Assembly (NCBI GenBank): GCA_001794605.1
Contig: MGKD01000013.1
Location: 13,463 to 77,462, forward strand
Direction: 5' to 3'
Source: Candidatus Yanofskybacteria bacterium RIFCSPHIGHO2_12_FULL_45_19b
Lineage (GTDB): Bacteria; Patescibacteriota; Minisyncoccia; 2-02-FULL-40-12; IGHO2-12-FULL-4
DNA: 64,000 nt
This document shows positions 1-15,156 of this stretch, piece by piece (position 1 is the first letter of the stretch; the number at the start of each line of letters is the position of its first letter). Below the pieces are notes generated by a model. The model saw only the letters and a list, made by a program, of their open reading frames with translations. It searched no databases and was not told the DNA's origin. A program made the position numbers and the translations under genes.

Positions 1-1804
1 TGCTAGAACGACTGATTTGACGATTGATAGCAATACTTTTGATTATACTGGCTACGCTAATGGTAGTGGTTCGGAGGCAATTAGTGTGCGTTATGCTAGT
101 CATGTGGTGGTAACCAATAACATCCTGACTGGGTCGGCCAGCGCCACGACCTATGAGGCGGGTATTACATTAGCTTCGGTAAATTCTACTGGTGGTCAAA
201 GCGTAATTAGCGGAAACACGGTGGACGGTTTCAGTCGTGGTATCCGTATTCAGCGTTGGGCGTCTGGCGATGGTAATTCTGATGATATAGAGATAACCAA
301 CAACGCAGTAACCGATGGCGTTGTTCTGACGGGTAGTGAAAGTAGTACTGGTGTTGGCTTATTTCTTGCTGGTGTAACCAATCTTTTCGTGGATGAAAAT
401 ACTGTTACTGGTCATACTAATGCCGGTGTGTATATCCCAGCCACTGTTTCGGATGGCGGGGCTAACACCATCACCAATATGATAATTGGTGGTTCAACGG
501 CTAGCTTCAATGACTTTTCTAGCAATACCGACGGAATGGACAACTTCACAACCACAACTGCTAGTGCGCAATATAACTGGTGGGGAAGCTCGACTGGGCC
601 GAACCACTCGCCGGAAAATATTCCTGGAGTAGGCAGTTCTGTTTCTGATTATGTGGACTACAGCCCGTGGTGTACAAATAGTAGCTGTACAACTTTCGGT
701 TCCAGCGACCCGATAGATCATTTTGATATTGATCCGTCAGCTGGTTCGGCAATTGTCAATGTGTTGATTACCCTCACCGTAACCGCTAAAGATTCCGCGG
801 ACATTACTCGGGTTAATGATACCAGTGTAGTTTCGATGGCGGCTGACCATGGTGCATCATTGGGAACCCTACTCCTAACCTTGATAAGTGGGACCAGGGA
901 TACCACTGTGACAAATTCTGTGACGGGAACAGTTAATGTTTCTGGTATTAAAGTGGGCGGTTCAGCCACCGGCTCAACTTCTGTATCGTTTACCAGCAGT
1001 GATCCTGACGCGCCTACGATTATCAGCCACTCTCCAGCGGATGATGCAACCGATGTTGCCGTTACTACTGTGCCATACATTACCTTTTCCGAGGCACTCA
1101 AAGCCAGCACAGTTAACTCCACCAACATCCAACTAAAGAAATACAGCGACAACTCCAATGTTTCTGCCACGGTATCGTTAGTAGAAGGTGGCACCCGAGT
1201 CAACATTACGCCAGACAGCTCCTTGGCCAACAATACCCAATACTACTTTGCTGTTTCAACTAGCGTGCAGGATGAGGCCGGTAATGCTTTGGTGACCGCG
1301 CTGGATGTTGGTAGTAGAGATAGCCATGAATTCACCACTGTGGCCATTGAACCAGTGGTGGTGGACGAGATCGTGGCCGAGTCCAGCACTGCTACCGCCG
1401 ACGACACTTACATCAACGGCTGGCACTACATTTACCGCATCACTGTGAATACTGACGAAACCGATCTTTCGGTTAAGTTTACTGATTGGGATAACGCCGA
1501 CACGACGGACACCATCGCCGCCAATGGCAATATGCGAGTATTGTTCAATAGTGTTACCGCCAATGGGTTAGGTGCGGTGGTCGGTTTGACCGATTCTGAC
1601 ATTGAGGACGGTTTTGGTGATGTGGATTCATACGCAATTGGGAATGATTATACCGACCAATCTCCAAGCGTAATTGATATTTCCGGCCTGGATACTAGTA
1701 GTGTGCGTGATGGCCGGCAGGTTCAGTTTGATGTCTATACTAAACTGCCAGTAACCACTGTACCGGGTTTTTACACCACTACCTATGGTATTCAGGTTAA
1801 TTAA
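1..1804 (+). CDS. cell-surface protein, 5'-partial: parallel beta-helix-like repeats followed by Ig-like beta-sandwich domains
   Basis: Frame is open to the window edge, so the TTG at 17 is internal. N-terminal half has repeated NN..TG/GxxxxGIxI beta-helix-type repeats. C-terminal half is Thr/Ser/Val-rich Ig-like segments. Confidence 0.5.
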   Translation, partial: ARTTDLTIDSNTFDYTGYANGSGSEAISVRYASHVVVTNNILTGSASATTYEAGITLASVNSTGGQSVISGNTVDGFSRGIRIQRWASGDGNSDDIEITNNAVTDGVVLTGSESSTGVGLFLAGVTNLFVDENTVTGHTNAGVYIPATVSDGGANTITNMIIGGSTASFNDFSSNTDGMDNFTTTTASAQYNWWGSSTGPNHSPENIPGVGSSVSDYVDYSPWCTNSSCTTFGSSDPIDHFDIDPSAGSAIVNVLITLTVTAKDSADITRVNDTSVVSMAADHGASLGTLLLTLISGTRDTTVTNSVTGTVNVSGIKVGGSATGSTSVSFTSSDPDAPTIISHSPADDATDVAVTTVPYITFSEALKASTVNSTNIQLKKYSDNSNVSATVSLVEGGTRVNITPDSSLANNTQYYFAVSTSVQDEAGNALVTALDVGSRDSHEFTTVAIEPVVVDEIVAESSTATADDTYINGWHYIYRITVNTDETDLSVKFTDWDNADTTDTIAANGNMRVLFNSVTANGLGAVVGLTDSDIEDGFGDVDSYAIGNDYTDQSPSVIDISGLDTSSVRDGRQVQFDVYTKLPVTTVPGFYTTTYGIQVN

Positions 1805-1812
1805 CTTCATCC

Positions 1813-2469
1813 ATGACTAATAATAAAAAAATTAATTTCTGGGTGATCTTACTACTACTGTTGGCCTGGCCGGTTAGTGCTTCGGAGGTCACCGGTGGAC
1901 TTAGTAATCAGGGAGTAGTGCCAATCCTCCCTAGTGGAGTAGTCGCCACCAAGACTGGTGATCAACAAATCACCATCAGTTGGAATGCGGTGGTCGGCGT
2001 AGATGGTTATCGGATTTATCAAAAAAAAGACAGTGCTGATTTTCAGCTGTTGGTTGATAATCTGACCAACCTCCAGTATGTCAACTCAAGCTTAGCTAAT
2101 GGTAATTACAGTTATCGGGTGCAGTCATTTAAAGGGAGTTTAAGTCCGAGTGTAGATAATACTGCTCCTACCGCACCCATTACTATCAATTTTGTTGTTT
2201 CTACTCCGACTCCCACCCCAACACCGTCGGGTGGCGGTGGTGGAGGTGGCGGGGGGGGCGGCTCAGTATCTACACCCACTCCCACTCCCACAGGCACGCC
2301 TACATTGAATCAAGGTAATTCCAATGGGGACGGTAAAGTAGATGTGTTAGACTTCAATACCTTGGTTACTAATTGGGGAGCCACTGGTAGTGGTAATTCG
2401 GCAGACTTTAACAGTGATGGTACGGTTGATATTTTAGACTTCAACATCCTAATGAATAATTGGAGTTAA
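1813..2469 (+). CDS. secreted FN3-like domain protein with Pro/Thr-Gly11 linker and C-terminal type-I dockerin (two Ca-binding repeats)
   Basis: Signal peptide MTNNKKINFWVILLLLLAWPVSA. FN3-like ITISWNAVVGVDGYRIYQK. Dockerin repeats NGDGKVDVLDFNTLVTNW and NSDGTVDILDFNILMNNW. Confidence 0.75.
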   Translation: MTNNKKINFWVILLLLLAWPVSASEVTGGLSNQGVVPILPSGVVATKTGDQQITISWNAVVGVDGYRIYQKKDSADFQLLVDNLTNLQYVNSSLANGNYSYRVQSFKGSLSPSVDNTAPTAPITINFVVSTPTPTPTPSGGGGGGGGGGGSVSTPTPTPTGTPTLNQGNSNGDGKVDVLDFNTLVTNWGATGSGNSADFNSDGTVDILDFNILMNNWS

Positions 2470-2480
2470 TAAATCTAAAT

Positions 2481-3242
2481 ATGATGAAAAAAACTATTCT
2501 CGCAATTATTACTGTCGTTGGTTTTGGTCTATCCGCTGGGCCAGCGCTGGCCGCTACGCTTACGCTGTCGCCAACTAGTATTACCGTGAAGGCCGGGCAG
2601 TCTTTTACTGTAGCAGTTATGGTTGATCCACAAGGCGGGAAAGATTCAACTATCAAGACTGTACTGAGTTTCCCCGCTGATATGCTAAGTGTGCAGGCTT
2701 TCACGCAAAACACTGGCTGGTTGTCACTCACTCAACCTGGCTATGATCTAACAGATAATACCAATGGTAAGTTAGTTAAAACGGCTGGCTTCCCGGGTGG
2801 TATTACTAATACTACTACCTTCGGTACAGTGAACTTTTTGGCTAAAAAAAGTGGTAGTGCCAATATCCAAGTAACCGCTGAATCATTGGTTTATGACAAT
2901 ACCAATAAAAATGTTTTAGGATCGGTACTTGGCCAAACCGTGGTAACAATTAATCCGGCGGCTACTCCAACTCCGACCGTCACTAAAGCAGTTACACCAG
3001 CACCAACCAAGGTTGGTGGGCAGGTAACCGCTAGCCCGACGCCAACCGTATCGGAGGAGGCAGGCGTGTTAACCCCCACCCCCACTCCAGATACGCTAAG
3101 CGATAGTACTACGGCGCGTTTGGGTGCGGCGTTAACGCTGGGTACCAACAAGTGGCCAGTAGCAGTTTTGGTACTTGCCATTTTAGCTGGGTTGCTGGCT
3201 TGGTTAATCTGGGGCCTGCGCCGACGCAAAAACAACCTATAG
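2481..3242 (+). CDS. membrane-anchored cohesin-like domain protein (PT-rich linker, C-terminal TM helix and RRRKNN stop-transfer)
   Basis: ATG at 2481 with signal peptide MMKKTILAIITVVGFGLSAGPALA. Cohesin-like beta-sandwich pattern (ITVKAGQSFTVAVMV...LSFPADMLSV...GTVNFLAKKSGSANIQV). PTPTP linker. C-terminal hydrophobic helix followed by RRRK. Confidence 0.6.
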   Translation: MMKKTILAIITVVGFGLSAGPALAATLTLSPTSITVKAGQSFTVAVMVDPQGGKDSTIKTVLSFPADMLSVQAFTQNTGWLSLTQPGYDLTDNTNGKLVKTAGFPGGITNTTTFGTVNFLAKKSGSANIQVTAESLVYDNTNKNVLGSVLGQTVVTINPAATPTPTVTKAVTPAPTKVGGQVTASPTPTVSEEAGVLTPTPTPDTLSDSTTARLGAALTLGTNKWPVAVLVLAILAGLLAWLIWGLRRRKNNL

Positions 3243-3262
3243 TCTAAAGCAAAATAACCCAA

Positions 3263-3287
3263 AACCTTGAGGTTTAACCTCAGGGTT
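3263..3287. repeat. REP-like imperfect palindrome (degenerate copy of the RAYT-associated hairpin)
   Basis: aaccttgaggtt-t-aacctcagggtt; one mismatch in the stem. Same core as the 4694 and 5380 copies. Confidence 0.6.
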
Positions 3288-3380
3288 AGTAACCCGTCCC
3301 CCACTTTTGCCCTCCTACGCGAAGAGAATATGCTTCGGGGGGTATACAAAAAGTAGGGGACGAGTGTTATCATTTAGTTC

Positions 3381-3701
3381 ATGATTAACTATGAACAATT
3401 TAGCCAGACTGAACTACAAGTAGCAGAAGTTAAAACTGCTGAACGGGTGACTGGTTCAGACAAATTACTGAAATTAATGATTAGTTTGGGTGAGGAGGAG
3501 CGCCAGATTATCGCTGGTATCGGCAAAGCCTACGAACCAGAAAGTTTGATTGGCAAACAGATTATTATCGTTGCCAATCTGGAACCACGCCAACTGATGG
3601 GCTTAGAAAGCCAGGGCATGTTGCTAGCGGCTGACTCCGAAGCTGGTCCGGTGCTTTTGATGCCAGACAAACCAGTCTCTCCTGGTAGTAAAATTAAATG
3701 A
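3381..3701 (+). CDS. csaA: tRNA-binding protein (CsaA/Trbp111-like OB-fold, MetRS C-terminal-like)
   Basis: LQVAEVKTAERVTGSDKLLKLMISLGEEERQIIAGIGKAYEPESLIGKQIIIVANLEPRQLMG matches the tRNA-binding EMAP/CsaA domain. Confidence 0.8.
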   Translation: MINYEQFSQTELQVAEVKTAERVTGSDKLLKLMISLGEEERQIIAGIGKAYEPESLIGKQIIIVANLEPRQLMGLESQGMLLAADSEAGPVLLMPDKPVSPGSKIK

Positions 3702-4684
3702 AGCGAGTTATTTTAATTGTTCTGATTTGTCTAGCTATTGCAGCTGGAGGGTTTTTGCTCTTTACTCATCAAGACTTTTCTTTTAAGGGTGGAGAGGGAT
3801 TTTCAATTTTTTCTACCCCGACCCCGATGAACACTATCCTAATTTTTACTGGTGATATTATGCTGGGTCGGAGTGTGGAGATTAAATTAAATAAATATGG
3901 TGCTGGTGATTATTTCTTTCCCTTTGCGCGCATCAGCGAGTGGTTAAATTCGGCGGATTTAACTTTTGCTAATTTAGAGGGACCAGTCTCGGACCGGGGC
4001 ATAAAAGTGGGCAGTATCTACTCTTTTCGCTTCAATCCGTTAGTGACAAAAGCTTTAAAAAAGGCCGGTTTTGATGTGGTTTCCTTGGCCAATAACCATA
4101 TTTGGGACTATGGTCCACAGGCTTTTTTAGACACTCTGGATAATTTAAAAACTGGTGGAATTGATTATGTCGGCGCCGGTAAAAATTTCACTGAGGCGCA
4201 TGGCGGCCTAACCAAAGAAATCAACGGTACTCGGATAACTTTCTTAGCTTATACCCCGCTGTTAGCAAAAAGTTTGAATGCTACGGCTGACCATTTTGGT
4301 ATTAATGTTTTAGATTTAGACCAGATGGACTTGGATATTAAATCTGCCAAAGCGTGCAGTGATTTAGTGGTGGTGTCGTTTCATTTTGGCGAAGAGTACA
4401 AACCTAAGCATAATCAATTTCAAGAAACCGTCGCCTATCGCGCCGTTGATGCCGGAGCAGATTTAATTATCGGTCACCATCCGCACGTGGCAGAGGATTT
4501 GGAACAATACCAAGGCAAATGGATTGCCTACAGCCTGGGAAATTTTATTTTTGATCAATACTTTTCTCCCGAAACCATGCAAGGGTTGGTTTTGCGAGTA
4601 ACATTAAGTGGCAAAACTATCTCCAAAGTAGAACCACTCACTGTGCAACTAAATAGCAACTTCCAACCAGCCTTGATCGACTAA
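3698..4684 (+). CDS. CapA-family (PGA_cap) metallophosphatase-like capsule/poly-gamma-glutamate synthesis protein
   Basis: N-terminal TM. GDIMLGR motif, NNH and HHPH metal-binding motifs. Start overlaps the upstream gene by 4 nt. Confidence 0.7.
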   Translation: MKRVILIVLICLAIAAGGFLLFTHQDFSFKGGEGFSIFSTPTPMNTILIFTGDIMLGRSVEIKLNKYGAGDYFFPFARISEWLNSADLTFANLEGPVSDRGIKVGSIYSFRFNPLVTKALKKAGFDVVSLANNHIWDYGPQAFLDTLDNLKTGGIDYVGAGKNFTEAHGGLTKEINGTRITFLAYTPLLAKSLNATADHFGINVLDLDQMDLDIKSAKACSDLVVVSFHFGEEYKPKHNQFQETVAYRAVDAGADLIIGHHPHVAEDLEQYQGKWIAYSLGNFIFDQYFSPETMQGLVLRVTLSGKTISKVEPLTVQLNSNFQPALID

Positions 4685-4693
4685 AAAAAGCGC

Positions 4694-4722
4694 CCTACCT
4701 TGAGGTTTAACCTCAAGGTAGG
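4694..4722. repeat. REP hairpin (14-bp perfect stem, 1-nt loop) cctaccttgaggtt-t-aacctcaaggtagg; contains GTAG
   Basis: Read directly. The reverse complement of the left arm equals the right arm. Confidence 0.85.
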
Positions 4723-4734
4723 TATACTTCTGAT

Positions 4735-5394
4735 ATGGCTAATCGAAAAATTAGTTTTATCAACGATAACTATTATCATATTTATAACCGTGGTATTGAT
4801 AAGCGGATTATCTTTGAGAATGACCACGATTTTAAAAGATTTCAAGAAAGTCTACGGCTATTCAATTCTCCTAATAGTATCTGGCTAGCTGATGCTAACC
4901 AGAAAACTGAGGTTAAACCTCAAGACCGTCTGGTAGATATAGTGTGCTACTGTCTAATGCCCAATCATTTCCATCTTTTACTTAAGCAACGAGTTGATAG
5001 TGGTATCCCAAATTTCATGCGAAAATTGGGCACTGGGTATTCGTTATATTTTAATATGCGCAAAGAACGAAGTGGTAGTTTATTTCAAGGTACCTACAAA
5101 GCCAAGCTAGTGACAGATGATAATTACCTGACTCATCTTTCTAGATATATTCACATGAATCCGGTTGAGCTGGTAGATAGTAATTGGAAAGTGGCCGGTA
5201 TAAAAAACAAAAGAACGGCATTTGATTTTCTCGATAAGTTTCAGTGGTCAAGTTATCCTGATTTTATATCAGAAGTCAGTGGCAAGATAATTAGTAGAAG
5301 TATTTTGCATGAAATGTTTACGCCCAGTAGCTACAAGAAATTCATCGAGAGCTGGCTAATTAAAGATTTAGAGCAAATTGCCCAACTACCTTGA
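4735..5394 (+). CDS. REP-associated tyrosine transposase (IS200/IS605-like Y1 HUH transposase, RAYT)
   Basis: HUH motif MPNHFHLLL. Candidate catalytic Tyr in LFQGTYKA. C-terminal YIHMNPVELV...WSSY signature of the transposase IS200-like family. Confidence 0.75.
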   Translation: MANRKISFINDNYYHIYNRGIDKRIIFENDHDFKRFQESLRLFNSPNSIWLADANQKTEVKPQDRLVDIVCYCLMPNHFHLLLKQRVDSGIPNFMRKLGTGYSLYFNMRKERSGSLFQGTYKAKLVTDDNYLTHLSRYIHMNPVELVDSNWKVAGIKNKRTAFDFLDKFQWSSYPDFISEVSGKIISRSILHEMFTPSSYKKFIESWLIKDLEQIAQLP

Positions 5395-5418
5395 GGTTAA
5401 ACCTCAAGGTAGTTGGGC
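5380..5418. repeat. REP hairpin (19-bp perfect stem, 1-nt loop) gcccaactaccttgaggtt-a-aacctcaaggtagttgggc
   Basis: Read directly. Shares the ctaccttgaggtt core with the 4694 copy. Confidence 0.85.
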
Positions 5419-5420
5419 AG

Positions 5421-5524
5421 AATGGTTTTGGAGGTAACATTGGGCAGTGAAAACCATAACTAAGGTTGAGCCATTTACCGTGCGACTGAATGGCGATTTT
5501 CAACCAGCAGCTCTGGCCAACTAG
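5421..5524 (+). pseudogene. remnant duplicate of the CapA 3' end (frameshifted), ending ...VKTITKVEPFTVRLNGDFQPAALAN*
   Basis: Nucleotide and protein similarity to 4580-4684 (GKTISKVEPLTVQLNSNFQPALID*). One-nt indel upstream. Lies immediately after the right REP. Confidence 0.55.
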
Positions 5525-5617
5525 AGTGGCTTGTGATATACTACTTTTACCCCTGGACCAAGCTCGGTCATGGAAGGGGGTGTACGAGCAACCTTTTGAA
5601 TCATGAGGGTTAGTTAA

Positions 5618-5971
5618 ATGACGATTGGAATGGCGAGAATTGCTGTGGTTGAACTGCCGGCGAATCCAAGAAACAAGGGCACGGAGTTTATCAACAAGCC
5701 CATCAACGAGTTGACCTCGGAGGTCGTCGAACTCATGATGAGGTTGGGGTGTCGAACCCCCTTGGAGTTGGTCGATAAGGCCGTGGAGTCGAAGGTGGCT
5801 TCGTTGGCCGCGGTCAACTCTCTCAAGAGCAGTGTGGAGTCGCTCCACCCATTCAATCTTGTTGTAAGAGTTCTTCCGGAACTCCGCGAGGAGATTGAGG
5901 GCAGAGTTCTTCGTCTGCGTTCACAGCAGATCAGGGCGAGCCATGGAGCCCACCCGGTGCGGAGGGTGTAG
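5618..5971 (+). CDS. hypothetical protein, GC3-rich orphan ORF (foreign codon usage)
   Basis: 117-aa ORF with strongly G/C-ending codons, unlike the A/T-ending codons of neighbours. TGaTATACT extended -10-like box at 5534-5542. Strong terminator downstream. Confidence 0.35.
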   Translation: MTIGMARIAVVELPANPRNKGTEFINKPINELTSEVVELMMRLGCRTPLELVDKAVESKVASLAAVNSLKSSVESLHPFNLVVRVLPELREEIEGRVLRLRSQQIRASHGAHPVRRV

Positions 5972-6068
5972 ATATCCCATTCTCTCTGTTCAAAAGCATC
6001 AGCCTATCGTGCAGTTCTTTTTTATTATCTCTCGGTCTGAGAATTGGGCGGCTTAAACCCGCCTAGTC

Positions 6069-6104
6069 GACCGCCCTAGATGTAAGGGCGGTCTTTATTT
6101 TTTT
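6069..6104 (+). terminator. rho-independent terminator gaccgccct-agatgta-agggcggtc + TTTATTTTTTT
   Basis: 9-bp GC-rich stem, 7-nt loop, T-tract. Confidence 0.75.
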
Positions 6105-6133
6105 ATGGTTATTTGTTAAGTAAGGTCTTATCT

Positions 6134-6694
6134 ATGCAGGAAGATCTAGATTTAGCAAAAATCACCCTGGATGCTTTTCACTCGATTGTCTATTTATCTT
6201 TTCTCGTTAAAGACAGTGGTTTGCGTGAGCGGCTAATTGCTAGAGCGAAACCACTGCTAGATCGTCCGGGGCGATCGGAATTTGAGCGAGTTAAAATGCT
6301 AGAGCAAACCGTCGCTTGCCTCCTCGATTATTTGGAACTCCTGGTCTATCTAAAGTCTGCTCCGCTAGGGGGTTTGCTGGAGACCCAAAAACAGGTACTG
6401 AAATTAAAATTGATTATTGTTAGCAAGGAGAAGAATGCTCATCCTAAAAAAGTTTCTAAACCAGAAGAGGTTCAAATTGAAACTGAAAAAGGAAATGACC
6501 AAATTTTGGATGAAAAAATTATTGAACTAGTTAAGACCAGAGATGGTTGTAACTTTAAGGATATTTCTGGCGAGCTAGGTGGGGAGTATTCCAAACGGAC
6601 TTTGATCCGTTATATCAACAAACTATTGGCGCGCGGTTTAATCAAGAAAAAGCTGGGGCTGGATACGAGGTTTCCTAGCTATACGGTTGAGTGA
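6134..6694 (+). CDS. putative DNA-binding protein with C-terminal winged-helix HTH
   Basis: C-terminus NFKDISGELGGEYSKRTLIRYINKLLARGLIKKK is wHTH-like. N-terminus is alpha-helical. Start ambiguous between TTG 6113 and ATG 6134. Confidence 0.45.
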   Translation: MQEDLDLAKITLDAFHSIVYLSFLVKDSGLRERLIARAKPLLDRPGRSEFERVKMLEQTVACLLDYLELLVYLKSAPLGGLLETQKQVLKLKLIIVSKEKNAHPKKVSKPEEVQIETEKGNDQILDEKIIELVKTRDGCNFKDISGELGGEYSKRTLIRYINKLLARGLIKKKLGLDTRFPSYTVE

Positions 6695-6741
6695 TGGTGC
6701 CAGGCATGGTGCCAGCTAGCTGGCACCATGCCTGGCACCAT
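6694..6741. repeat. 48-bp perfect palindrome atggtgccaggcatggtgccagcta|gctggcaccatgcctggcaccat
   Basis: The reverse complement of the left half equals the right half. Begins at the stop codon of the wHTH gene. Confidence 0.9.
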
Positions 6742-6833
6742 GAAGTTGTGCTTATTTAAATAGGACATTCATGGTGCCAGCTAAATCTGTTGCTGAATCT
6801 GGCTTTACGCTTGGCACCATGCTTGGCACCATG
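6694..6833. promoter_or_regulatory. array of seven copies of the 10-mer core GGCACCATG/CATGGTGCC in both orientations (iteron/operator-like)
   Basis: Copies at 6694, 6705, 6720, 6732, 6770, 6811 and 6823. The last two are tandem ttggcaccatg. Confidence 0.5.
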
Positions 6834-7067
6834 AAGACCGTGTGGTTTTCATTTTTCTGACATAATTTTACGGTGCTATCCGTCAGCCACTGGATGGGGA
6901 AATATTGCCCCAAGAGTTTTTGTGAAAGATGAAAAAGTCTTAATTTAAGGCGGTTATCCACAATTGGCTATTGTCGGTGCGGGTGAATAAAATTATAATG
7001 GTTTTAACGGTTGTTAGTAATCCGTTTTGTTCCTTGTTGGTAAAGGATTCCTTATTTCTCTGATGGT

Positions 7068-7095
7068 TTGACAAAAGGCCTATTTTTGTTAATAT
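7068..7095 (+). promoter_or_regulatory. sigma70-like promoter TTGACA-N16-TAATAT upstream of the S-layer-like gene
   Basis: ttgaca at 7068-7073, taatat at 7090-7095. Roughly 350-nt leader before the ATG at 7444. Confidence 0.45.
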
Positions 7096-7443
7096 CACCA
7101 GAGCGTCTAAGGACTATTATCAGTTAGTAAATGCGGGCTAAAAAGGTGCGTAAAAAGCCACTATTTACGAGCTTGTAATAGGAATCTATCCGAGGCGAGC
7201 TTGGACCTTGAAAACTCAATAAAACGGTTGCTATATATTGTAAGTAAAATAAGAGGTCAAACTAAGCAATAATAATGAGCTCCATCGCTCGTTCTAAATT
7301 TTTTTGCTCGGTCGATAAAACAGAGCGAATTCCCTTTTTGAGGGTGAGGAACAAGTGAGTGGTGGTTCAATAAGTTAAACCGTTCTGGCTAGTTGGGTGG
7401 TCGCAAGACAAACCAAATTTATCCAGAACACAAATATCAATCT

Positions 7444-10400
7444 ATGAGTCAATTATCAACAAAAGGAACGAGAGCGGTTTTAATCAAAACTGCCTCAGTT
7501 CTCACAGGTGTAGCGACAATATTGTCGTTATCCGGAATCCTGGCTTTTGCCCCAGTGGCAGGTGCCGTGGCTCCGTCCAACTTCGGATTGACTGAGGGCA
7601 ACACGATCAGTGCTGCTGGCTCCGAAGATCCGGATGTCTATATCATTAATGATGCGGGCTACAAGAGATTGTTCTTGAACCCGGCAATCTTTGGCTTCTA
7701 TGGTCACCTCGGTGGCTTTGCCAACATTAAAAATGTTACCCCAGCGACTCGCGATGCCTTCGTAACTTCTGGTCTGTTCCGCAACTGCGAAACCAATGAC
7801 GAAAAAGTTTATGGCGTTGAGACTACTGGTGAGGACACCGGTATGTTGCACTGGGTAAATACTTCTGGTGCGCAGGCCGTTGCAGATGACCCAAATTTCT
7901 TCTTGAAAGTTTTCTGCATCAACAATAATGAGTTCAACTGGTATGCTAAGGGTACAAACTACACCTCAGTAAATCAGGTCCCGAACTATTCCAGAACTCC
8001 TGGTGTTACTCCAACCCCAACCCCATTGGCGGGTTCAGTGAGTGTCAGTCTAGCTCCGAACAATCCAGCCGCTTCTACTACTACGACTAACGCTCAAGGA
8101 GTGGAATACTTGCGAGTGCGTTTGAGTGGTAGTGGTACGGTTAACTCCGTAACGGTCAAGCGCACTGGCGCTGGTTCAGTAGATGACTTTGATAATATTT
8201 ACCTTTACGATGGCGCGCGTCGTCTCGTGACTGGTAAGTCATTGACTTCATCCACTGGCGAGGCAACTTTCAGCAACCTAAGCATTGCAGTGAATGGCTC
8301 TAAAGATATTTCAGTAGTAGCCGATCTTTCTGCTACCGCTGGTAATGTCAACGCCTTCAGCTTAAATGCTCTAAGTCTGACTTCTGGTTCGGTCAGTGGC
8401 CTACCAGTAGGCGGTAATAATCTTTCCGTTTCTGGTGCTACCTCCGGTACCATTACTATGACCAAGGTTGGTTCAATAGGTGATCCAAATGCAGGTCAGC
8501 AGGATGTACAGTTGTCTGAATTTAAGCTGTCGGCTAATACTGAAGCGGCTTCAGTCAGACGCATTCAGATGTTACAGGGCGGTACAGTTAATACCTCTGG
8601 TATCACTGATCTTAAATTGAAGACTGGTTCCAGTGAATGGTCAGGGACTATTGATAGCGCTGGCTATGTTGTCTTCGACCTTGGTTCCGGATTCAGTATT
8701 GTCAAGGGTGGCAATGCCGTCTTTAAGGTTTATGGTGATATTGCTGGCAAGAAAGACGAAACCATTAAGCTCTACTTTGAGTACGCTACTGACATTTTGG
8801 CAGTAGGCGATCAGTATGGCTATGGTATGGCTGTTACTAGTACTACTATGGACGCGGTAAGTGAGGCACATGCCCTTACCCTACAGGGTGGTGTATTAAC
8901 GCTTACCTCTTCTGGTTTAGTGGCATCGGATATCGGTACTGATACCGATGATACGGTCTTCCTACGTTATTCGATCGCTGCAGCCAGTAATGTTGAGATT
9001 CGTAAACATCGTTTAGTTATCAGTAGCGACAAGGGTGGTGATGGCACGTTTGACGATTTCGTCGTTGCGACCAGCACCAGTTTCGCTGATCTCGATGATA
9101 TCAAGGTAATTAATGAAGCTAACGGAGCGGTTCTAATCGGACCGGTTGATGGTAGTTCCTTTGATGAAGTTGGTACTGCAAATAACAGTGCCGGCGGCGC
9201 GGTGGAAGGGGCAATGAACACCTTTAGTGATGTCATTGATCTCTCCGCTGGCCAGACCTTGAGTCTGAAGGTTACCGCCGACGTGAAGACTGGCAACACA
9301 CGCACTGGTTCTGCACTCGTAGCTGGTTCTAAAGTAGCAATCGGTGTCCAGGATTACTCTGATAATGTTGGAGTAACCGAATTGAAATATACTGGCACCA
9401 ACACAGCTTTAGCGGCTGCGGACATTGTGCCAAATGCTAACATTCATGGTCCAACTATGACTTTGACCGCTTCCAGCTTAACTTTAAGCTTGGCCTCTAA
9501 CCCAGCCGACCAGACAGTCGTGCAAGGTAGCCAGAATGTTGATAGCGTTGGTATTATCTTCCAGGCTTCGAATGCTTCTGCCTTGAAAGTAACGAATATT
9601 ACCGTTACCGGTTACTCCGATGCGAATGGCGCCGATGCCTTCGATAAGGGCAGTGCGGGCGATATTGGTTCAATCGTGTCAGCTGTGTCGTTGGTGGAAA
9701 AAGAGAGTGGAACAGTTTTATCCTCTACTCCTTCTGCTAATAACCTGGCGGCTTCTGCCGGTACGATCGTCTTCAATAACCTAAACTGGAACATTCCAGC
9801 GGGTGCGAGTCGGACGCTTATTGTTAGAACTAATCTTCTAAACTTAACTCCGCCGACCAAGGACGAATTTGGCTTCGATATTGCGGCCACGACTGACGTG
9901 ACTGCCATCGACGATTCAAACACCACGGTTAATGCTGGTAATGCCACTCCAAACGGTGCCACCAGTATTACGACTGAAGTAGAGGTAGTCAGTGCTGGTA
10001 ATATCTTTGTTACCGAGTATTTATCCTCGCCTTCTAAAGACAAGCAGGCTATCTACTGGGGTCAGACCGGTGTAGCAGTTTCTACCTTCAATGTCCGTGC
10101 GGCGAAGGAGGGCTTCTACATTGACCGGTTCAACATAGTATCGGCTGATACAGCTGATGCCAAGAATAATGTTGCCGGCGTCTATCTGGAGTATCAGGAC
10201 AAGGCTGGTTCAACTCTTACTGCCGGTCCGTACTCCTTAAGTGGTAGTGTTGCGTCTGTGTCATTTGGTTTCAGTGGTGCAACTCGGCCATATATTCCAA
10301 AAGATCAGTCGCGTCAAGTTGTTGTGAAAATTGATACCATTGGTACTCATCTAGCTGGTGCGACCTCGGCAGTTGACTTTGCGATGAACTTCTCGGGTGG

Positions 10401-11046
10401 TGCTGCGGACGAATTCGAAGCTACCGGCGAGGGTTCATTTGCCAAGGTGCTCGGCAATGATACTACTGGTGACGATACCGATAGTGTAACTGTGTCCAAT
10501 AAGAACATGGTCTATCGTTCGTTCCCGAAGTTTACTAATATCGTCTTGGCTGATGGTGCTGCTAGTGCCAACGCAGTGGTAGGCAAGTTTACCATCACTG
10601 CTATGGGCTACGATGTGCTCTTCAATACGATTAACGTTGCTTCTGGTACGATTACCTTTGACACGGTGGCATCTGGTCAGACGGCTCCAGCCGATCCGAT
10701 GATCACACTGTATGATGATACTACTGGCCTAGTTTATTCTAGTGCTTCGTATGATATCGATACCGTTAATGCTTCTTTGAGCTTCTCGGAATTCCTGAAT
10801 GCCTTAAACATTCCGGCCGGTACCTCAAAGACATTGCGCGTCCAGGGTAACCTAACCGCCTTCAATCGCGCGACTAACACCACCAGTGGTGTGGCCGCTG
10901 ATCACTTTATGCTCGTCCTGCAGGATGAAGCTAATGTGATTAAGTGGGTTGACAGTGCGGGCGTCGATGCCAATCTTGACCAGGCTAATACGGCAGGTTA
11001 TATCAAGAACCTTCCGTTCAATGGACCGAACATGACTGGTCAGTAG
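7444..11046 (+). CDS. giant secreted cell-surface (S-layer-like) protein with multiple Ig-like/beta-sandwich repeats
   Basis: ATG at 7444 gives signal peptide MSQLSTKGTRAVLIKTASVLTGVATILSLSGILAFAPVAGA. Roughly 1200 aa, rich in T/S/G/V/A. N-terminal ~115-aa domain is paralogous to the C-terminus of the 54399-55340 protein. Confidence 0.65.
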   Translation: MSQLSTKGTRAVLIKTASVLTGVATILSLSGILAFAPVAGAVAPSNFGLTEGNTISAAGSEDPDVYIINDAGYKRLFLNPAIFGFYGHLGGFANIKNVTPATRDAFVTSGLFRNCETNDEKVYGVETTGEDTGMLHWVNTSGAQAVADDPNFFLKVFCINNNEFNWYAKGTNYTSVNQVPNYSRTPGVTPTPTPLAGSVSVSLAPNNPAASTTTTNAQGVEYLRVRLSGSGTVNSVTVKRTGAGSVDDFDNIYLYDGARRLVTGKSLTSSTGEATFSNLSIAVNGSKDISVVADLSATAGNVNAFSLNALSLTSGSVSGLPVGGNNLSVSGATSGTITMTKVGSIGDPNAGQQDVQLSEFKLSANTEAASVRRIQMLQGGTVNTSGITDLKLKTGSSEWSGTIDSAGYVVFDLGSGFSIVKGGNAVFKVYGDIAGKKDETIKLYFEYATDILAVGDQYGYGMAVTSTTMDAVSEAHALTLQGGVLTLTSSGLVASDIGTDTDDTVFLRYSIAAASNVEIRKHRLVISSDKGGDGTFDDFVVATSTSFADLDDIKVINEANGAVLIGPVDGSSFDEVGTANNSAGGAVEGAMNTFSDVIDLSAGQTLSLKVTADVKTGNTRTGSALVAGSKVAIGVQDYSDNVGVTELKYTGTNTALAAADIVPNANIHGPTMTLTASSLTLSLASNPADQTVVQGSQNVDSVGIIFQASNASALKVTNITVTGYSDANGADAFDKGSAGDIGSIVSAVSLVEKESGTVLSSTPSANNLAASAGTIVFNNLNWNIPAGASRTLIVRTNLLNLTPPTKDEFGFDIAATTDVTAIDDSNTTVNAGNATPNGATSITTEVEVVSAGNIFVTEYLSSPSKDKQAIYWGQTGVAVSTFNVRAAKEGFYIDRFNIVSADTADAKNNVAGVYLEYQDKAGSTLTAGPYSLSGSVASVSFGFSGATRPYIPKDQSRQVVVKIDTIGTHLAGATSAVDFAMNFSGGAADEFEATGEGSFAKVLGNDTTGDDTDSVTVSNKNMVYRSFPKFTNIVLADGAASANAVVGKFTITAMGYDVLFNTINVASGTITFDTVASGQTAPADPMITLYDDTTGLVYSSASYDIDTVNASLSFSEFLNALNIPAGTSKTLRVQGNLTAFNRATNTTSGVAADHFMLVLQDEANVIKWVDSAGVDANLDQANTAGYIKNLPFNGPNMTGQ

Positions 11047-11090
11047 TCTTAGTCTCGTCTGCTTCTTACTGCGCGTAAGTTCGGACAACC

Positions 11091-11116
11091 AAAAACCGCC
11101 TTCGGGCGGTTTTTGG
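11091..11116 (+). terminator. rho-independent terminator aaaaaccgcc-ttcg-ggcggttttt
   Basis: GC stem with TTCG tetraloop, flanked by an A-run and a T-run (potentially bidirectional). Confidence 0.8.
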
Positions 11117-11155
11117 TTGGTTGAAAACGGATTAGAATTAATCTATGATAAGAAA

Positions 11156-12988
11156 ATGTTTGGTATTTCAAGAGAAAAACTCGGAATGATCGGCCTGCTA
11201 GTTTTAGTAGGCGCGATTATTTATAGCTTCAATTTACATAACCAATTATTTTGGGATGATGCTGACTGGATTGTAAATAACCCCACTGTCCACGCTCTCG
11301 GTTGGGATAATATTAAGTTTTGGTTTTCTCATAATACCTTGGCTGGTATTGGTATGCAGAGTAATTACTATCGCCCCTTTTTATTTTTTACCTTTGCTAT
11401 TAATTATGTAATTTCTGGAGTTAATCCGTTCTCCTACCACCTATTTAGTAATGTTATTCACATTATTAACGGACTGCTAATTTTTCTCCTCTTCTCTAAT
11501 GTTATTAAAAATAAACTGGTTGGATTTATTGCCGCGCTACTCTTTTTAGTGCACCCGATTGCTACTGAGGCGGTTACCTATATTGCTGGTCGGGGCGATC
11601 CACTCTATGTATTTTTTACACTTCTAGGACTCTGGCTTTTTTACAGCGCCGAGAGTAAAAAACTGGGTTGGCCCGGTGTTACAACTTCCAGTAGTGGTCT
11701 GATCGCTGGAAAGAAAAATCTGGAAGTTGTAACACCGGGTTGGCTTAGTTGGCAAAAAATCGTCTCTTTAGTGGTCCTAGTTTTAGGTCTTTTGAGCCGA
11801 GAGGTAGCTATTGTTTTTCCTCTGCTAGCCCTTATTTTTTCGATAGCCTTCTTGGAGACGGGGACTTTTATTCGTTCAATCCTCAATTCGCTAAAAAGAA
11901 CCTGGCCTTACTTTGGAGTGGTTTTTGTTTATGGCATTCTACGTCTCACTCTGCTTAACTTTAACAATACCCTAAACTTTTATACTACTCCCAATATCTA
12001 CTCAGAGAACTTGCCCGTGCGCCTATTTACTTTTATGCACGCTTTGTTTGATTACTTTGGAATACTGTTTGTACCGATCAAATTACACATGGAGCGAAGC
12101 GTACCGATTCACCTCTCGCCGTTCGATTGGCCAGTCTGGGCGGTGATTCTACTGTCAGCCGGTGCTATCTATGGATTGTATCGTTTGTATAAAAAGGATC
12201 GCGGGGAGAGGACTTTCCGATTCTGGTTCTTTGTTTTTGGCTGGTTCTTTGTCGCTTTGGGGCCGGTGTCCGGGATTACGCCGATCAATGCCCAGATCTA
12301 TGAACATTGGCTCTACCTTCCCGCCGTCGCAATTTTCTTGGCAGTTGGTTATGGTTTTAGTTGGTTGTTGAATTTTTTGTCCACCAATCGTAAAGGGCTC
12401 CGACGTTTGATGGTTGGGACGTTTGCGCTATATATTGGTTGGCTTTCTTATCAGTCTATCCAGCGTAATATTGTTTGGGGCAAGCCGATTGAATTTTATC
12501 AAGATATTTTAACCTACGAACCGGATAGTGTGCGGATAAATAATAATCTGGGCAATCGGTATTATGATGAAGGCAATATTGATCGGGCTGAATATTACTA
12601 TCAACGTGCGGTGGAGAGTGAAGATATCTTTCCCCAGCCGCACTATAATCTGGGCACCATTTTACAGGCCAGGGGCGATAACCATGGTGCGATAGAGGAG
12701 TATAAAAAGGCACTTTTGATAAATCCTTATTTCCACTATCCCTACCAAAATTTAGCCCACCTCTATGCCCAGCAAGGGGATTTAGTTAAAGCCAGAGAAT
12801 TACTCGAGCAATTAGAAAAAATACGCCCTAACGATCCAGTAACCTACTACTCTTTGGCGGCGGTGCACCAGGCACAGGGTAACTATGTGCAGGCCAGGGC
12901 TTATGCTGAAAAGGGCCTACTCTATGCCCCTCCGAACAGTAAGGTGAGGCAGGCACTAGAGGAGATATTGACCCAGCTAAATAAGTAA
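11156..12988 (+). CDS. TMTC-like polytopic membrane protein with C-terminal TPR repeats (GT-C-type protein O-mannosyltransferase-like)
   Basis: N-terminal multi-TM region with H..N.LLF..N and ALLFLVHPIATEAVTYIAGR motifs. C-terminal TPRs (NNLGNRYYDEGNIDRAEYYYQRAVE...). Confidence 0.6.
   Translation: MFGISREKLGMIGLLVLVGAIIYSFNLHNQLFWDDADWIVNNPTVHALGWDNIKFWFSHNTLAGIGMQSNYYRPFLFFTFAINYVISGVNPFSYHLFSNVIHIINGLLIFLLFSNVIKNKLVGFIAALLFLVHPIATEAVTYIAGRGDPLYVFFTLLGLWLFYSAESKKLGWPGVTTSSSGLIAGKKNLEVVTPGWLSWQKIVSLVVLVLGLLSREVAIVFPLLALIFSIAFLETGTFIRSILNSLKRTWPYFGVVFVYGILRLTLLNFNNTLNFYTTPNIYSENLPVRLFTFMHALFDYFGILFVPIKLHMERSVPIHLSPFDWPVWAVILLSAGAIYGLYRLYKKDRGERTFRFWFFVFGWFFVALGPVSGITPINAQIYEHWLYLPAVAIFLAVGYGFSWLLNFLSTNRKGLRRLMVGTFALYIGWLSYQSIQRNIVWGKPIEFYQDILTYEPDSVRINNNLGNRYYDEGNIDRAEYYYQRAVESEDIFPQPHYNLGTILQARGDNHGAIEEYKKALLINPYFHYPYQNLAHLYAQQGDLVKARELLEQLEKIRPNDPVTYYSLAAVHQAQGNYVQARAYAEKGLLYAPPNSKVRQALEEILTQLNK
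11673..11744. mobile_element. MITE-like in-frame 72-bp insertion: 20-bp perfect inverted repeats flanked by 8-bp direct repeat GGGTTGGC
   Basis: IR arms cccggtgttacaacttccag (11672-11691) and ctggaagttgtaacaccggg (11720-11739). Direct repeats at 11665-11672 and 11737-11744. 72 bp = 24 codons, and the reading frame is kept. Confidence 0.55.
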
Positions 12989-13003
12989 CTAGAATAAGAG
13001 AAT

Positions 13004-13492
13004 ATGAATAAAAAGATAATGCTGGGAATTATAGTAGTGCTAGCACTGACAGGGGTTGGCCTTTTTGTCTATCAGCAGGGTAGCTCTGATCCCCAAATCA
13101 GTCCCACCGCTACCCCACCAGAGGGCGTACCGACCGGAATCAGTAATGTTCGCCCAGAGTGTCAATTGAGTGGCAGAATCGTTTTTATTGCTGATAAGCT
13201 AACGCGCAGTGATGGGGCCAGTTTCGTATACCAGGGGGTGATGGATTCGCATGATACTCTCAATTGGTCAATCAATCCAGCAGAGGATGTGAGGGTTGGT
13301 CCTAATCGTTTTTCCGCGATACCATTGCCGAATGGTAAGGAAACCCCAACCATCGCTTTTAACCAAGGGAAACCCAGTCTTACTACTTATAAACTAAGTG
13401 CCTCGATTGATTACCCTTACGTGGTAAATAATAAGGTAGAGGTGCTTAATCAAAAGTGTACTGGTACGATTGAAGTAAAGATTGCTTATTAA
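13004..13492 (+). CDS. hypothetical N-terminally membrane-anchored/secreted protein
   Basis: Single N-terminal hydrophobic helix. No recognisable domain. Confidence 0.4.
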   Translation: MNKKIMLGIIVVLALTGVGLFVYQQGSSDPQISPTATPPEGVPTGISNVRPECQLSGRIVFIADKLTRSDGASFVYQGVMDSHDTLNWSINPAEDVRVGPNRFSAIPLPNGKETPTIAFNQGKPSLTTYKLSASIDYPYVVNNKVEVLNQKCTGTIEVKIAY

Positions 13493-13494
13493 TT

Positions 13495-15150: not shown

Positions 15151-15156
15151 ATCGAT

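What the first reader, a model, noticed from the sequence alone, without database searches (positions are those of the whole stretch)
6694..6833. 48-bp perfect palindrome plus a 7-copy 10-mer iteron array downstream of a wHTH protein and upstream of the S-layer-like gene
Immediately at the stop codon of a putative winged-helix protein lies the perfect palindrome atggtgccaggcatggtgccagcta/gctggcaccatgcctggcaccat. Five further copies of GGCACCATG or its complement follow within 140 bp. The architecture resembles an operator/iteron, a centromere-like parS site, or a recombination site. It may be the binding site of the adjacent wHTH protein, regulating the downstream surface-protein promoter.
Basis: partly seen in the sequence, partly recalled or inferred. 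Interest (0 to 1): 0.6.

Follow-up and report, generated by a model that had tools for sequence, protein, structure and literature searches.

The report
Recognition-box array beside a winged-helix regulator
A cluster of seven identical 10-base boxes, four of them forming a perfect 48-base palindrome, lies between a small uncharacterised DNA-binding protein gene and a giant surface-protein gene in a Candidatus Yanofskybacteria genome, and comparison with relatives suggests it is that protein's own binding-site array.

Summary
A perfect 48-bp palindrome lies at 6694-6741. Seven TGGCACCATG boxes (six exact, one with one mismatch) lie within 6693-6833, and there is no other exact copy in the 64 kb.

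The upstream gene (6134-6694) encodes a helical N-domain, a disordered linker and a C-terminal winged helix. It belongs to a family of about 28 clusters found in Patescibacteria, called "family X" here.

Relatives supply the main evidence:
- A species whose family X protein is 63% identical keeps the same seven-box layout, but every box reads TGTCACTATG.
- A 10-bp indel between boxes 5 and 6 preserves helical phase.
- A locus with a 24%-identical paralogue has six direct TTTGCCAT boxes at the same position.
- GGTG(A/C)CA arrays with an FF..RR layout recur between family X genes and the surface-protein gene. Some sit inside the coding linker of an LTD-domain gene, which synonymous recoding cannot explain.

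Best reading (confidence about 0.5): a multi-box binding array for the adjacent protein, 120-155 bp upstream of the conserved surface-gene promoter module. Binding and the regulatory effect are untested.

The tests do not support a parS site, replication iterons, a sigma-54 promoter, REP elements or an invertible switch. I rate it a new variant of a known kind, of moderate interest.

The parts
6134..6694 (+). Gene for a 186-aa 'family X' protein: four N-terminal helices, a disordered Lys-rich linker (residues ~93-120) and a C-terminal winged helix-turn-helix (recognition helix ~154-166, SKRTLIRYINKLL).
6694..6741 (.). Perfect 48-bp palindrome made of boxes 1-4 (layout F F R R, where F = GGTGCCA). 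It starts at the last base of the stop codon.
6693..6702 (-). Box 1 (TGGCACCATC, one mismatch), overlapping the TGA stop codon.
6705..6714 (-). Box 2 (TGGCACCATG).
6721..6730 (+). Box 3.
6733..6742 (+). Box 4.
6743..6769 (.). Conserved AT-rich spacer (GAAGTTGTGCTTATTTAAATAGGACATT), almost unchanged in the related species.
6770..6779 (-). Box 5, which stands alone.
6812..6821 (+). Box 6.
6824..6833 (+). Box 7. Boxes 6-7 form a 21-nt inverted repeat with boxes 1-2.
6954..6962 (+). TTATCCACA, found 31-32 nt upstream of the P1 -10 hexamer in all related surface-gene loci. This marks the start of the conserved promoter module.
6971..6999 (+). Promoter-like site P1 (TTGTCG-17-TATAAT).
7068..7095 (+). 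Promoter-like site P2 (TTGACA-16-TAATAT with an upstream TG), followed by a ~340-nt leader that is highly conserved.
7444..11046 (+). 1200-aa signal-anchored surface (S-layer-like) protein gene, the presumed regulated target.

Best explanation
The seven boxes are a clustered recognition array for the protein encoded immediately upstream. Each winged helix is inferred to read one ~7-10-bp box (core GGTGCCA here). The N-terminal helical bundle is inferred to oligomerise, and the ~25-residue flexible linker lets several DNA-binding domains reach boxes in either orientation. The preferred box spacing is 11-12 bp, about one helical turn. This would build a large nucleoprotein complex starting at the regulator's own stop codon and ending ~120 bp upstream of the TTATCCACA-P1-P2 promoter module of the surface-protein gene. 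The complex probably sets transcription of that gene, or blocks read-through into it. What is shown: the anatomy, its uniqueness in the window, conservation of the layout, concerted box change, and recurrence next to family X genes. What is inferred: that family X is the binder, one box per domain, oligomerisation, and the regulatory effect.
For: (1) The array is non-random and unique in 64 kb. (2) In locus L001 the family X protein is 63% identical. The intergenic DNA is 85% identical and collinear. All seven boxes keep their position and orientation but read TGTCACTATG, so two substitutions are repeated in every box, with no box left behind. (3) The only length change inside the array is a 10-bp indel between boxes 5 and 6, which preserves the helical face. 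(4) In L062 the surface protein is 77% identical but the family X paralogue only 24%. There the same position, 20 nt after the stop codon and ~150 nt before TTATCCACA, holds six direct TTTGCCAT boxes at an 11-bp period. (5) In L070 the surface protein is 45% identical. The order is family X gene, terminator, a perfect FF/RR palindrome with 19-nt arms plus further GGTGACA boxes, then ~155 nt to ATATCCACA-P1-P2 and the surface gene. (6) Seven of ten loci with a family X gene carry a box cluster within 3 kb downstream, whereas the 64-kb window holds only one such cluster. (7) Of 42 same-orientation neighbour spacings, 24 are 11-12 bp. (8) Box variation tracks the recognition helix: RTLIRY with GGTGCCA, S-RTIIRY with AGTGACA, RTVKR(S/N)L with GGTGACA in three loci, and RTVYRY with ATGGCAAA. 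(9) The protein has a confident winged helix joined to a helical domain by a disordered linker.
Against: There is no binding data. Only two lineages share the exact seven-box layout, and the related loci are syntenic, so they are not independent samples. Concerted change could come from templated repair of quasi-palindromes or gene conversion rather than selection. L058 has a 12-box GGTGACA array with no family X gene in 8 kb. L069, L071 and L073 have family X genes with no clear array in the DNA available. In L064, L065, L067 and L072 the array lies inside an LTD-domain gene, 0.6-2.8 kb from the surface-gene promoter, so a simple upstream-operator role does not generalise. The array is at least 137 bp upstream of the P1 -35 hexamer, too far for classical repression by occlusion. 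A natural 77-bp deletion variant (L011) lacks the palindrome.
Confidence: 0.5

Rival explanations
1. The element acts as a structure in single-stranded nucleic acid. It would be a very stable hairpin, or a pair of alternative hairpins, in the transcript or in single-stranded DNA. Its role would be to terminate, insulate, process or stabilise the upstream mRNA, with no need for the neighbouring protein.
For: As RNA, the window array folds at -85.9 kcal/mol (z = -7.2) and the L001 array at -65.7 kcal/mol (z = -8.0). Two competing pairings exist: boxes 1-2 with 3-4, or boxes 1-2 with 6-7 enclosing 4 with 5. The concerted substitutions keep every pairing intact. The palindrome starts at the stop codon. 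In L001 it is followed by the T-rich run TTGTTGTTATTT. L064 has a canonical hairpin plus T-run after its family X gene.
Against: Pairing needs complementarity only, yet all seven boxes are identical, tandem same-orientation pairs included. L062 has only direct repeats, which cannot pair. In L064, GGTGCCA and GGTGACA forward boxes face only TGTCACC reverse boxes, which gives C-U mismatches. The window has no proper U-tract after the hairpin. The 10-bp phase-preserving indel has no meaning for RNA. Rfam returns only spurious microRNA hairpin hits below threshold.
Confidence: 0.15
2. The boxes are bound by a different, unlinked factor common to Patescibacteria, and the family X gene is merely a syntenic neighbour.
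For: L058 has 12 GGTGACA/TGTCACC boxes between unrelated genes, with no family X gene in 8 kb. In several relatives the array is tied to the linker of the LTD-domain gene rather than to the end of the family X gene.
Against: L062 swaps both the family X paralogue and the box sequence at the same position. The window and L001 change box and recognition helix together. A global factor's box should not vary between close relatives, and GGTGACA is not enriched elsewhere: 4 copies in the 64-kb window and 2 outside the array in L072.
Confidence: 0.15
3. It is a non-functional or selfish repeat. Candidates are a relic of the LTD-gene linker array left behind after gene loss, a MITE/REP-like element, or repeats kept uniform only by palindrome-templated repair.
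For: Relatives carry the array inside an LTD-domain gene that the window and L001 lack. A RAYT-like transposase and REP palindromes lie 1.3 kb upstream. A deletion variant exists in the population. The array has 21-nt terminal inverted repeats.
Against: There is only one copy in 64 kb, whereas REPs and MITEs are multi-copy, and the local REP family has an unrelated sequence. The layout, spacers and helical phase are conserved between species whose flanking proteins are 63-79% identical. Inside coding linkers the boxes are far more frequent than synonymous recoding allows: 14, 8, 7 and 6 observed against means of 2.5, 0.3, 0.8 and 0.5, with 0 of 5000 recodings reaching the observed count.
Confidence: 0.08
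4. It is a site-specific recombination or invertible switch. The 21-nt inverted repeats 6694-6714 and 6812-6832 would flank a ~97-bp segment that flips to vary surface-protein expression.
For: The arms are 95% complementary. Surface-protein genes in other bacteria are often phase-variable (established knowledge). A Y1 transposase gene is nearby.
Against: Ten contigs of the same species from different samples, plus L001, all show the same orientation. The segment lies upstream of both promoter-like sites, and no promoter-like site was found inside it. There is no serine or tyrosine recombinase within ~10 kb. The same boxes also occur inside the segment.
Confidence: 0.05
5. It is a centromere-like site or a set of replication-origin iterons.
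For: It is an array of short repeats next to a small DNA-binding protein gene, with a TTATCCACA (DnaA-box consensus) and AT-rich DNA 120 bp away. Seven short repeats next to a winged-helix gene recall tubC/TubR.
Against: No ParA, ParM, TubZ, ParB or Rep gene lies within ~10 kb. Chromosomal synteny is conserved across species. Cumulative GC skew rises monotonically through the region. DnaA-box-like sites are not clustered, and TTATCCACA belongs to the surface-gene promoter module in every relative. The boxes are 10 bp and in mixed orientation, not 17-22-bp direct iterons.
Confidence: 0.03

Closest known systems
Omega (ParB of pSM19035) and its heptad arrays
   Same: Both are arrays of 7-10 short, non-palindromic boxes (5'-WATCACW-3') used in direct and inverted orientations. 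Omega binds them cooperatively as a small protein with weak affinity for a single box, and the arrays sit at promoters (PMC9499535). This is the nearest analogue for how the array might work.
   Different: Omega is a ribbon-helix-helix protein and its heptads are strictly contiguous (7-bp period). It also serves as a centromere together with a ParA ATPase on a plasmid. Here the protein is a winged helix, the boxes are spaced 11-12 bp or more, no ATPase is present and the locus is chromosomal.
TubR-tubC (type III partition)
   Same: A small DNA-binding protein covers a split cluster of short iterons next to its own gene and forms a higher-order nucleoprotein complex that overlaps a promoter (PMC6009700). 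That TubR is a winged-helix protein is from my own knowledge.
   Different: tubC lies upstream of tubR-tubZ and works with a tubulin-like GTPase on plasmids and prophages. No TubZ is present here, family X has an extra N-terminal helical domain, and no sequence relationship was detected.
MarR / BlaI-MecI type winged-helix repressors
   Same: These are the best structural and profile matches for the C-terminal domain: MexR, MepR and MecI over 62-68 residues at rmsd 1.4-2.3 A, and Penicillinase_R in 9 of 27 family members. Like family X, they pair a winged helix with a helical oligomerisation domain.
   Different: Those proteins bind one or two palindromic operators that overlap the promoter, and BlaI has the opposite domain order. 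P0001 itself reaches no Pfam or NCBIfam threshold. Here there are seven or more boxes, well upstream of the promoter.
Z-alpha domains
   Same: The family X profile's best hits among solved structures are Z-alpha domains of PKZ, ORF112 and ADAR1 (E = 1.7e-5 to 1e-4). Foldseek also lists them.
   Different: The boxes are sequence-specific and are not alternating purine-pyrimidine tracts. By my manual alignment, the Asn and Tyr of the Z-alpha recognition helix are not conserved. The resemblance is probably a generic winged-helix one.
REP/BIME elements with RAYT
   Same: Both are palindromic units in alternating orientation in intergenic DNA, and a RAYT-like gene sits next to family X genes in 6 of 10 loci.
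   Different: The local REP family (CTACCTTGAGGTTWAACCTCAAGGTAG) is unrelated in sequence and flanks the RAYT gene. The box array is single-copy in the 64 kb.

Membership tests
Iteron-type plasmid replication origin | Direct repeats of 17-22 bp in one orientation, phased at about 22 bp | tested here: not met
   The boxes are 10 bp, in both orientations, with 12-bp pair spacing.
Iteron-type plasmid replication origin | Adjacent Rep initiator gene (two winged-helix domains, Rep_3-like) on an extrachromosomal replicon | tested here: not met
   P0001 has no Pfam or NCBIfam Rep hit and its model shows a single winged helix. Chromosomal synteny is conserved and GC skew shows no inflection.
ParABS / type Ib, II, III partition centromere | Partner NTPase (ParA, ParM or TubZ) encoded next to the centromere-binding protein | tested here: not met
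   Pfam scans of all ORFs from 17 to 17950 find none.
ParABS / type Ib, II, III partition centromere | Array of short repeats bound by a small adjacent DNA-binding protein | tested here: inconclusive
   The array and the adjacent winged-helix gene are present. Binding was not tested.
Intrinsic terminator | G+C-rich hairpin immediately followed by a U-tract | tested here: inconclusive
   The hairpin is very strong, but the tail GAAGUUGUGCUUAUUU is only moderately U-rich and the scan did not call it. L001 has a better tail.
REP / BIME | Many copies dispersed in intergenic regions of the genome | tested here: not met
   There is no other exact copy in 64 kb. The rest of the genome was not available.
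Invertible promoter switch | Both orientations present in populations, with a dedicated recombinase | tested here: not met
   Ten population contigs and L001 are all collinear. No recombinase other than the RAYT-like gene lies nearby. Read-level data were not available.
Sigma-54 promoter | TGGCAC-N5-TTGCW with invariant GG at -24 and GC at -12 | tested here: not met
   TGGCACCATGCTTGGCA has GG where GC is required. The L001 boxes (TGTCAC) lose the -24 GG while the array is otherwise conserved.
MarR / BlaI-type winged-helix regulator with operator | Winged helix-turn-helix DNA-binding domain | tested here: met
MarR / BlaI-type winged-helix regulator with operator | Family membership by curated profile threshold | tested here: not met
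   P0001 has no Pfam family at E <= 0.01. Its NCBIfam hits score 13-17 bits against cut-offs of 60-300.
MarR / BlaI-type winged-helix regulator with operator | Palindromic operator overlapping the regulated promoter | tested here: not met
   The array ends at 6833 and the first promoter-like -35 hexamer is at 6971.
Z-alpha (Z-DNA binding) domain | Conserved Asn/Tyr in the recognition helix and Trp in the wing; alternating purine-pyrimidine target | tested here: inconclusive
   There is profile similarity at E = 1.7e-5. The family invariants are R155, R159 and Y183. My manual alignment does not place the Asn and Tyr, and the boxes are not alternating purine-pyrimidine.

The most novel reading that the evidence does not exclude
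Family X and its box arrays form a clade-wide module in Patescibacteria in which regulator specificity and all of its boxes change together between species. The same arrays are written into the protein-coding linker of a surface LTD-domain gene, read in several frames, so one stretch of DNA carries both a peptide and a multi-site protein-binding array. This module would control the cell-surface proteins of these ultra-small, episymbiotic bacteria.
Probability: 0.3. Interest if true: 0.65.

Novelty: new variant of a known kind. Interest (0 to 1): 0.55.

Why it matters
Almost nothing is known about transcription control in Candidate Phyla Radiation bacteria, and their surface proteins are central to their attachment lifestyle. 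This locus pairs an uncharacterised regulator family with an obvious candidate target that is easy to synthesise. It also offers natural specificity variants: GGTGCCA, AGTGACA, GGTGACA and ATGGCAAA boxes, each with a different recognition helix. That makes protein-DNA co-evolution directly testable in vitro. The arrays embedded in coding sequence would be a clear case of overlapping codes. If the protein does not bind, the finding reduces to an unusually stable, conserved hairpin cluster.

Tried and rejected
- Rfam at gathering threshold over the whole window found nothing. At E-value threshold over 5300-7500 it gave only sub-threshold microRNA hairpin look-alikes of the palindrome.
- No tRNA or tmRNA gene was found.
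- The genome-contig scan with TGNCACNATGNNTGNCACNATGAA returned 50 mostly chance or coding-repeat hits and did not recover the window's species. It yielded only the curiosities L058, L019 and L051.
- Two word-indexed protein searches found only three family X clusters. The exhaustive HMMER search was needed to see the 28-cluster family.
- The search for related loci with the 27-sequence alignment failed for lack of a conserved stretch. A sub-alignment gave three loci.
- Locus L074 proved identical to L064 and added nothing.
- The 12-bp repeats at L068 1886-2258 and the GACACCA cluster in L073 are largely Pro/Thr-linker codon repeats, so I did not count them as clean arrays.
- A literature search for the heptamers returned only primers and unrelated sequences.
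- The DnaA-box or origin idea was dropped, because box-like sites are scattered and GC skew is monotonic.
- The sigma-54 idea was dropped on the -12 mismatch and on the L001 boxes.

Full report
**Observation.** The sequence is as described. Positions 6694-6741 form a perfect 48-nt palindrome with 24-nt arms and no spacer. The 10-mer TGGCACCATG occurs exactly at 6705(-), 6721(+), 6733(+), 6770(-), 6812(+) and 6824(+). A seventh copy at 6693(-) has one mismatch and overlaps the TGA stop of the upstream gene. No other exact copy exists in the 64 kb. At up to one mismatch there are 13 sites against 3.0 +/- 1.7 in shuffles, and seven of them lie in these 141 bp. Writing F for GGTGCCA and R for its complement, the layout is F F R R - F - R R. 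Paired boxes are 12 bp apart.

**Setting.** The organism is a Candidatus Yanofskybacteria (CPR/Patescibacteria) from groundwater. The upstream protein is identical to the NCBI hypothetical protein A3I32_02475. The gene order is:
- a tRNA-binding protein and a PGA_cap protein;
- a RAYT-like Y1 transposase flanked by its own REP palindromes;
- a 117-aa ORF and a terminator (6069-6093);
- the 186-aa gene (6134-6694);
- the array;
- TTATCCACA (6954), then two promoter-like sites P1 (6971-6999) and P2 (7068-7095);
- a ~340-nt leader and a 1200-aa signal-anchored surface protein (7444-11046);
- PMT/TPR glycosyltransferase-like genes.

No partition NTPase, Rep protein or classical recombinase lies within ~10 kb. 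GC skew rises monotonically, and DnaA-box-like sites are not clustered.

**The protein.** An AlphaFold model built from a three-sequence alignment gives four N-terminal helices (pLDDT 53-65) and a disordered Lys-rich linker (residues 93-120). It also gives a confident C-terminal winged helix: pLDDT 80-86, helices 122-135, 141-148 and 154-166, and wing strands 170-173 and 182-185. Foldseek matches MexR, MepR, Fur, MecI and Z-alpha domains over 62-68 residues, at rmsd 1.4-2.3 A but with weak E-values. The protein itself passes no Pfam or NCBIfam threshold. An exhaustive HMMER search of 1.84 billion representatives finds only 28 clusters at E <= 1e-3. Nearly all are 170-220 aa and most match over most of their length. 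I call these family X. R155, R159 and Y183 are invariant and T156 nearly so, giving an S-x-R-T-x-x-R recognition helix. Several members hit Penicillinase_R, HTH_DeoR or HTH_24.

**The closest relative.** Locus L001 is a syntenic contig from another species. Its family X protein is 63% identical and its surface protein 79% identical. Its intergenic region aligns collinearly at 85% identity. All seven boxes sit at the same positions and in the same orientations, but every one reads TGTCACTATG (F = AGTGACA). The same two substitutions recur in all seven boxes. The only length change inside the array is a 10-bp indel between boxes 5 and 6 (box-start spacing 39 vs 29), which is one helical turn. 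In both species box 1 overlaps the stop codon. The recognition helix differs at K154S and L157I.

**More distant relatives.** The surface protein has hundreds of homologues, and I fetched several loci.
- **L062** (surface protein 77% identical): its family X paralogue is only 24% identical. Twenty nucleotides after its stop codon, and ~150 nt before TTATCCACA, lie six direct TTTGCCAT boxes in a 3+3 layout with an 11-bp period.
- **L070** (surface protein 45% identical): the order is family X gene, terminator, a perfect FF/RR palindrome with 19-nt arms and an 11-bp box period, further GGTGACA boxes, ~155 nt to ATATCCACA-P1-P2, then the surface gene.
- **L064, L065, L067 and L072**: an LTD-domain surface-protein gene lies between the family X gene and the surface gene, and an F..F R..R array of GGTG(A/C)CA boxes sits inside its Pro/Thr/Ser-rich linker. 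The heptamer is read in different frames, as G-D-x, V-T or [VML]-S-P.
- **Recoding test**: recoding these linkers with each gene's own synonymous codons gives on average 2.5, 0.3, 0.8 and 0.5 boxes, against 14, 8, 7 and 6 observed. None of 5000 recodings reaches the observed count. The constraint is therefore on the nucleic acid, not the peptide.
- **L072 and L065**: their arrays are positional orthologues with box turnover.

Overall, seven of ten loci that carry a family X gene have a box cluster within 3 kb downstream. The window's 64 kb contains only this one cluster. Same-orientation neighbours are 11-12 bp apart in 24 of 42 cases.

**Population variation.** Eight of ten contigs of the same species from other samples are identical across the array. 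One has an assembly gap inside it. One (L011) carries a 77-bp deletion, 6704-6780, joining box 1 to box 5. No contig shows an inversion.

**Interpretation.** I think the array is most likely the cognate multi-site target of the adjacent family X protein. The supporting points are:
- All copies are identical in both orientations.
- The indel preserves helical phase.
- The preferred spacing is one helical turn.
- Box sequence changes together with the neighbouring paralogue.
- The position relative to the promoter module is conserved in four lineages.

A flexible linker between an oligomerising helical domain and a monomeric winged helix would explain why spacing and orientation are loose while the number of boxes is high. 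None of this is direct evidence of binding.

Several facts cut against the simple version. L058 has an array with no family X gene nearby. Three family X loci have no array in the DNA available. In several species the arrays lie inside another gene, far from the surface-gene promoter. The related loci share ancestry, so they are not independent. Concerted change could also arise from palindrome-templated repair.

The main rival is a purely structural hairpin element. The region folds extremely stably in two alternative ways. The direct-repeat array of L062 and the mixed A/C boxes of L064 argue against that as the general explanation.

**Comparison with known systems.** The closest functional analogue is the omega protein of pSM19035. 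It binds 7-10 heptads in mixed orientation at promoters (PMC9499535). A second analogue is TubR on the split iteron centromere tubC (PMC6009700). This locus is not a member of either system: it has no NTPase partner, it is chromosomal, the fold differs from omega, and the domain architecture differs. The DNA-binding domain resembles MarR/BlaI-type winged helices but passes no curated threshold. Replication iterons, parS, a sigma-54 promoter, REP/BIME elements and an invertible switch each fail at least one defining feature that I could test.

**Verdict.** The feature is real and clearly non-random. It is best explained as a species-specific recognition-box array for a small, uncharacterised Patescibacteria winged-helix family, placed upstream of the major surface-protein gene. 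I rate it a new variant of a known kind and moderately interesting. Its interest lies mainly in the natural specificity variants and in the arrays embedded in coding sequence.

Noticed in passing
window 4735-5394, with palindromes at 3264-3286, 4695-4721, 4907-4924 and 5386-5412: A RAYT-like Y1 transposase (Pfam Y1_Tnp; NCBIfam REP_Tyr_transpos below cut-off) is flanked by REP-like palindromes CTACCTTGAGGTTWAACCTCAAGGTAG, one of which lies inside its own coding sequence. A RAYT homologue sits next to the family X gene in 6 of 10 loci (window, L001, L069, L071, L072, L073).
   Followed up: partly
window 6954-6962; also L001, L062-L066 and L070 at 4215: A perfect DnaA-box consensus, TTATCCACA, sits 31-32 nt upstream of the P1 -10 hexamer of the surface-protein gene in every related locus examined. 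In L069 the same nonamer forms the outer ends of the REP palindromes around the RAYT gene. It may therefore be REP-derived or a separate factor site rather than a DnaA box.
   Followed up: partly
window ~7100-7443: The ~340-nt leader of the surface-protein gene is more than 90% identical to L001, although the flanking proteins are only 63-79% identical. That suggests a structured or protein-bound 5' UTR. There is no Rfam match.
   Followed up: no
L011 (ERZ27254846), equivalent to window 6704-6780: A population variant carries a 77-bp deletion between box 1 and box 5. It removes the palindrome but keeps one F box and two R boxes.
   Followed up: partly
L064 2041-2270, L072 4600-4703, L065 172-273, L067 1459-1575: GGTG(A/C)CA/TG(G/T)CACC arrays are embedded in the coding linker of LTD-domain surface proteins and read in several frames. 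They are far more frequent than synonymous recoding allows (0 of 5000 recodings reach the observed count).
   Followed up: yes
L058 1180-1368 (Patescibacteria MAG H43-bin064_1): Twelve GGTGACA/TGTCACC boxes, several extended to CATGGTGACA, lie in an intergenic region between a Pro-rich membrane protein gene and what looks by eye like a DksA/TraR-type zinc-finger gene. No family X gene occurs in the 8 kb held.
   Followed up: partly
L019 ~520-800 and L051 ~1500-1715 (Thermoguttaceae MAGs): Six to seven TGTCACTATG copies and a strongly AT-rich stretch lie directly after what looks like the end of an integrase gene (judged by eye, not searched). This resembles arm sites or an origin of a mobile element, and is probably unrelated to the window.
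   Followed up: no
L069 3117-3155 and 3369-3403: Two REP-like palindromes (TTATCCACA-TGCAAGGCT/AAGCCTTGCA-TGTGGATAA) lie inside the coding sequence of a family X gene.
   Followed up: no
window 5420-6068: In several relatives an HtrA-like protease gene precedes the family X gene. The window has no such gene; this stretch holds only a 117-aa ORF, 48% identical to a 155-aa ORF in L001, followed by a strong terminator at 6069-6093.
   Followed up: partly
window 11672-11691 / 11720-11739: A perfect 20-nt inverted repeat with a 28-nt loop lies inside the PMT/TPR gene 11117-12988.
   Followed up: no
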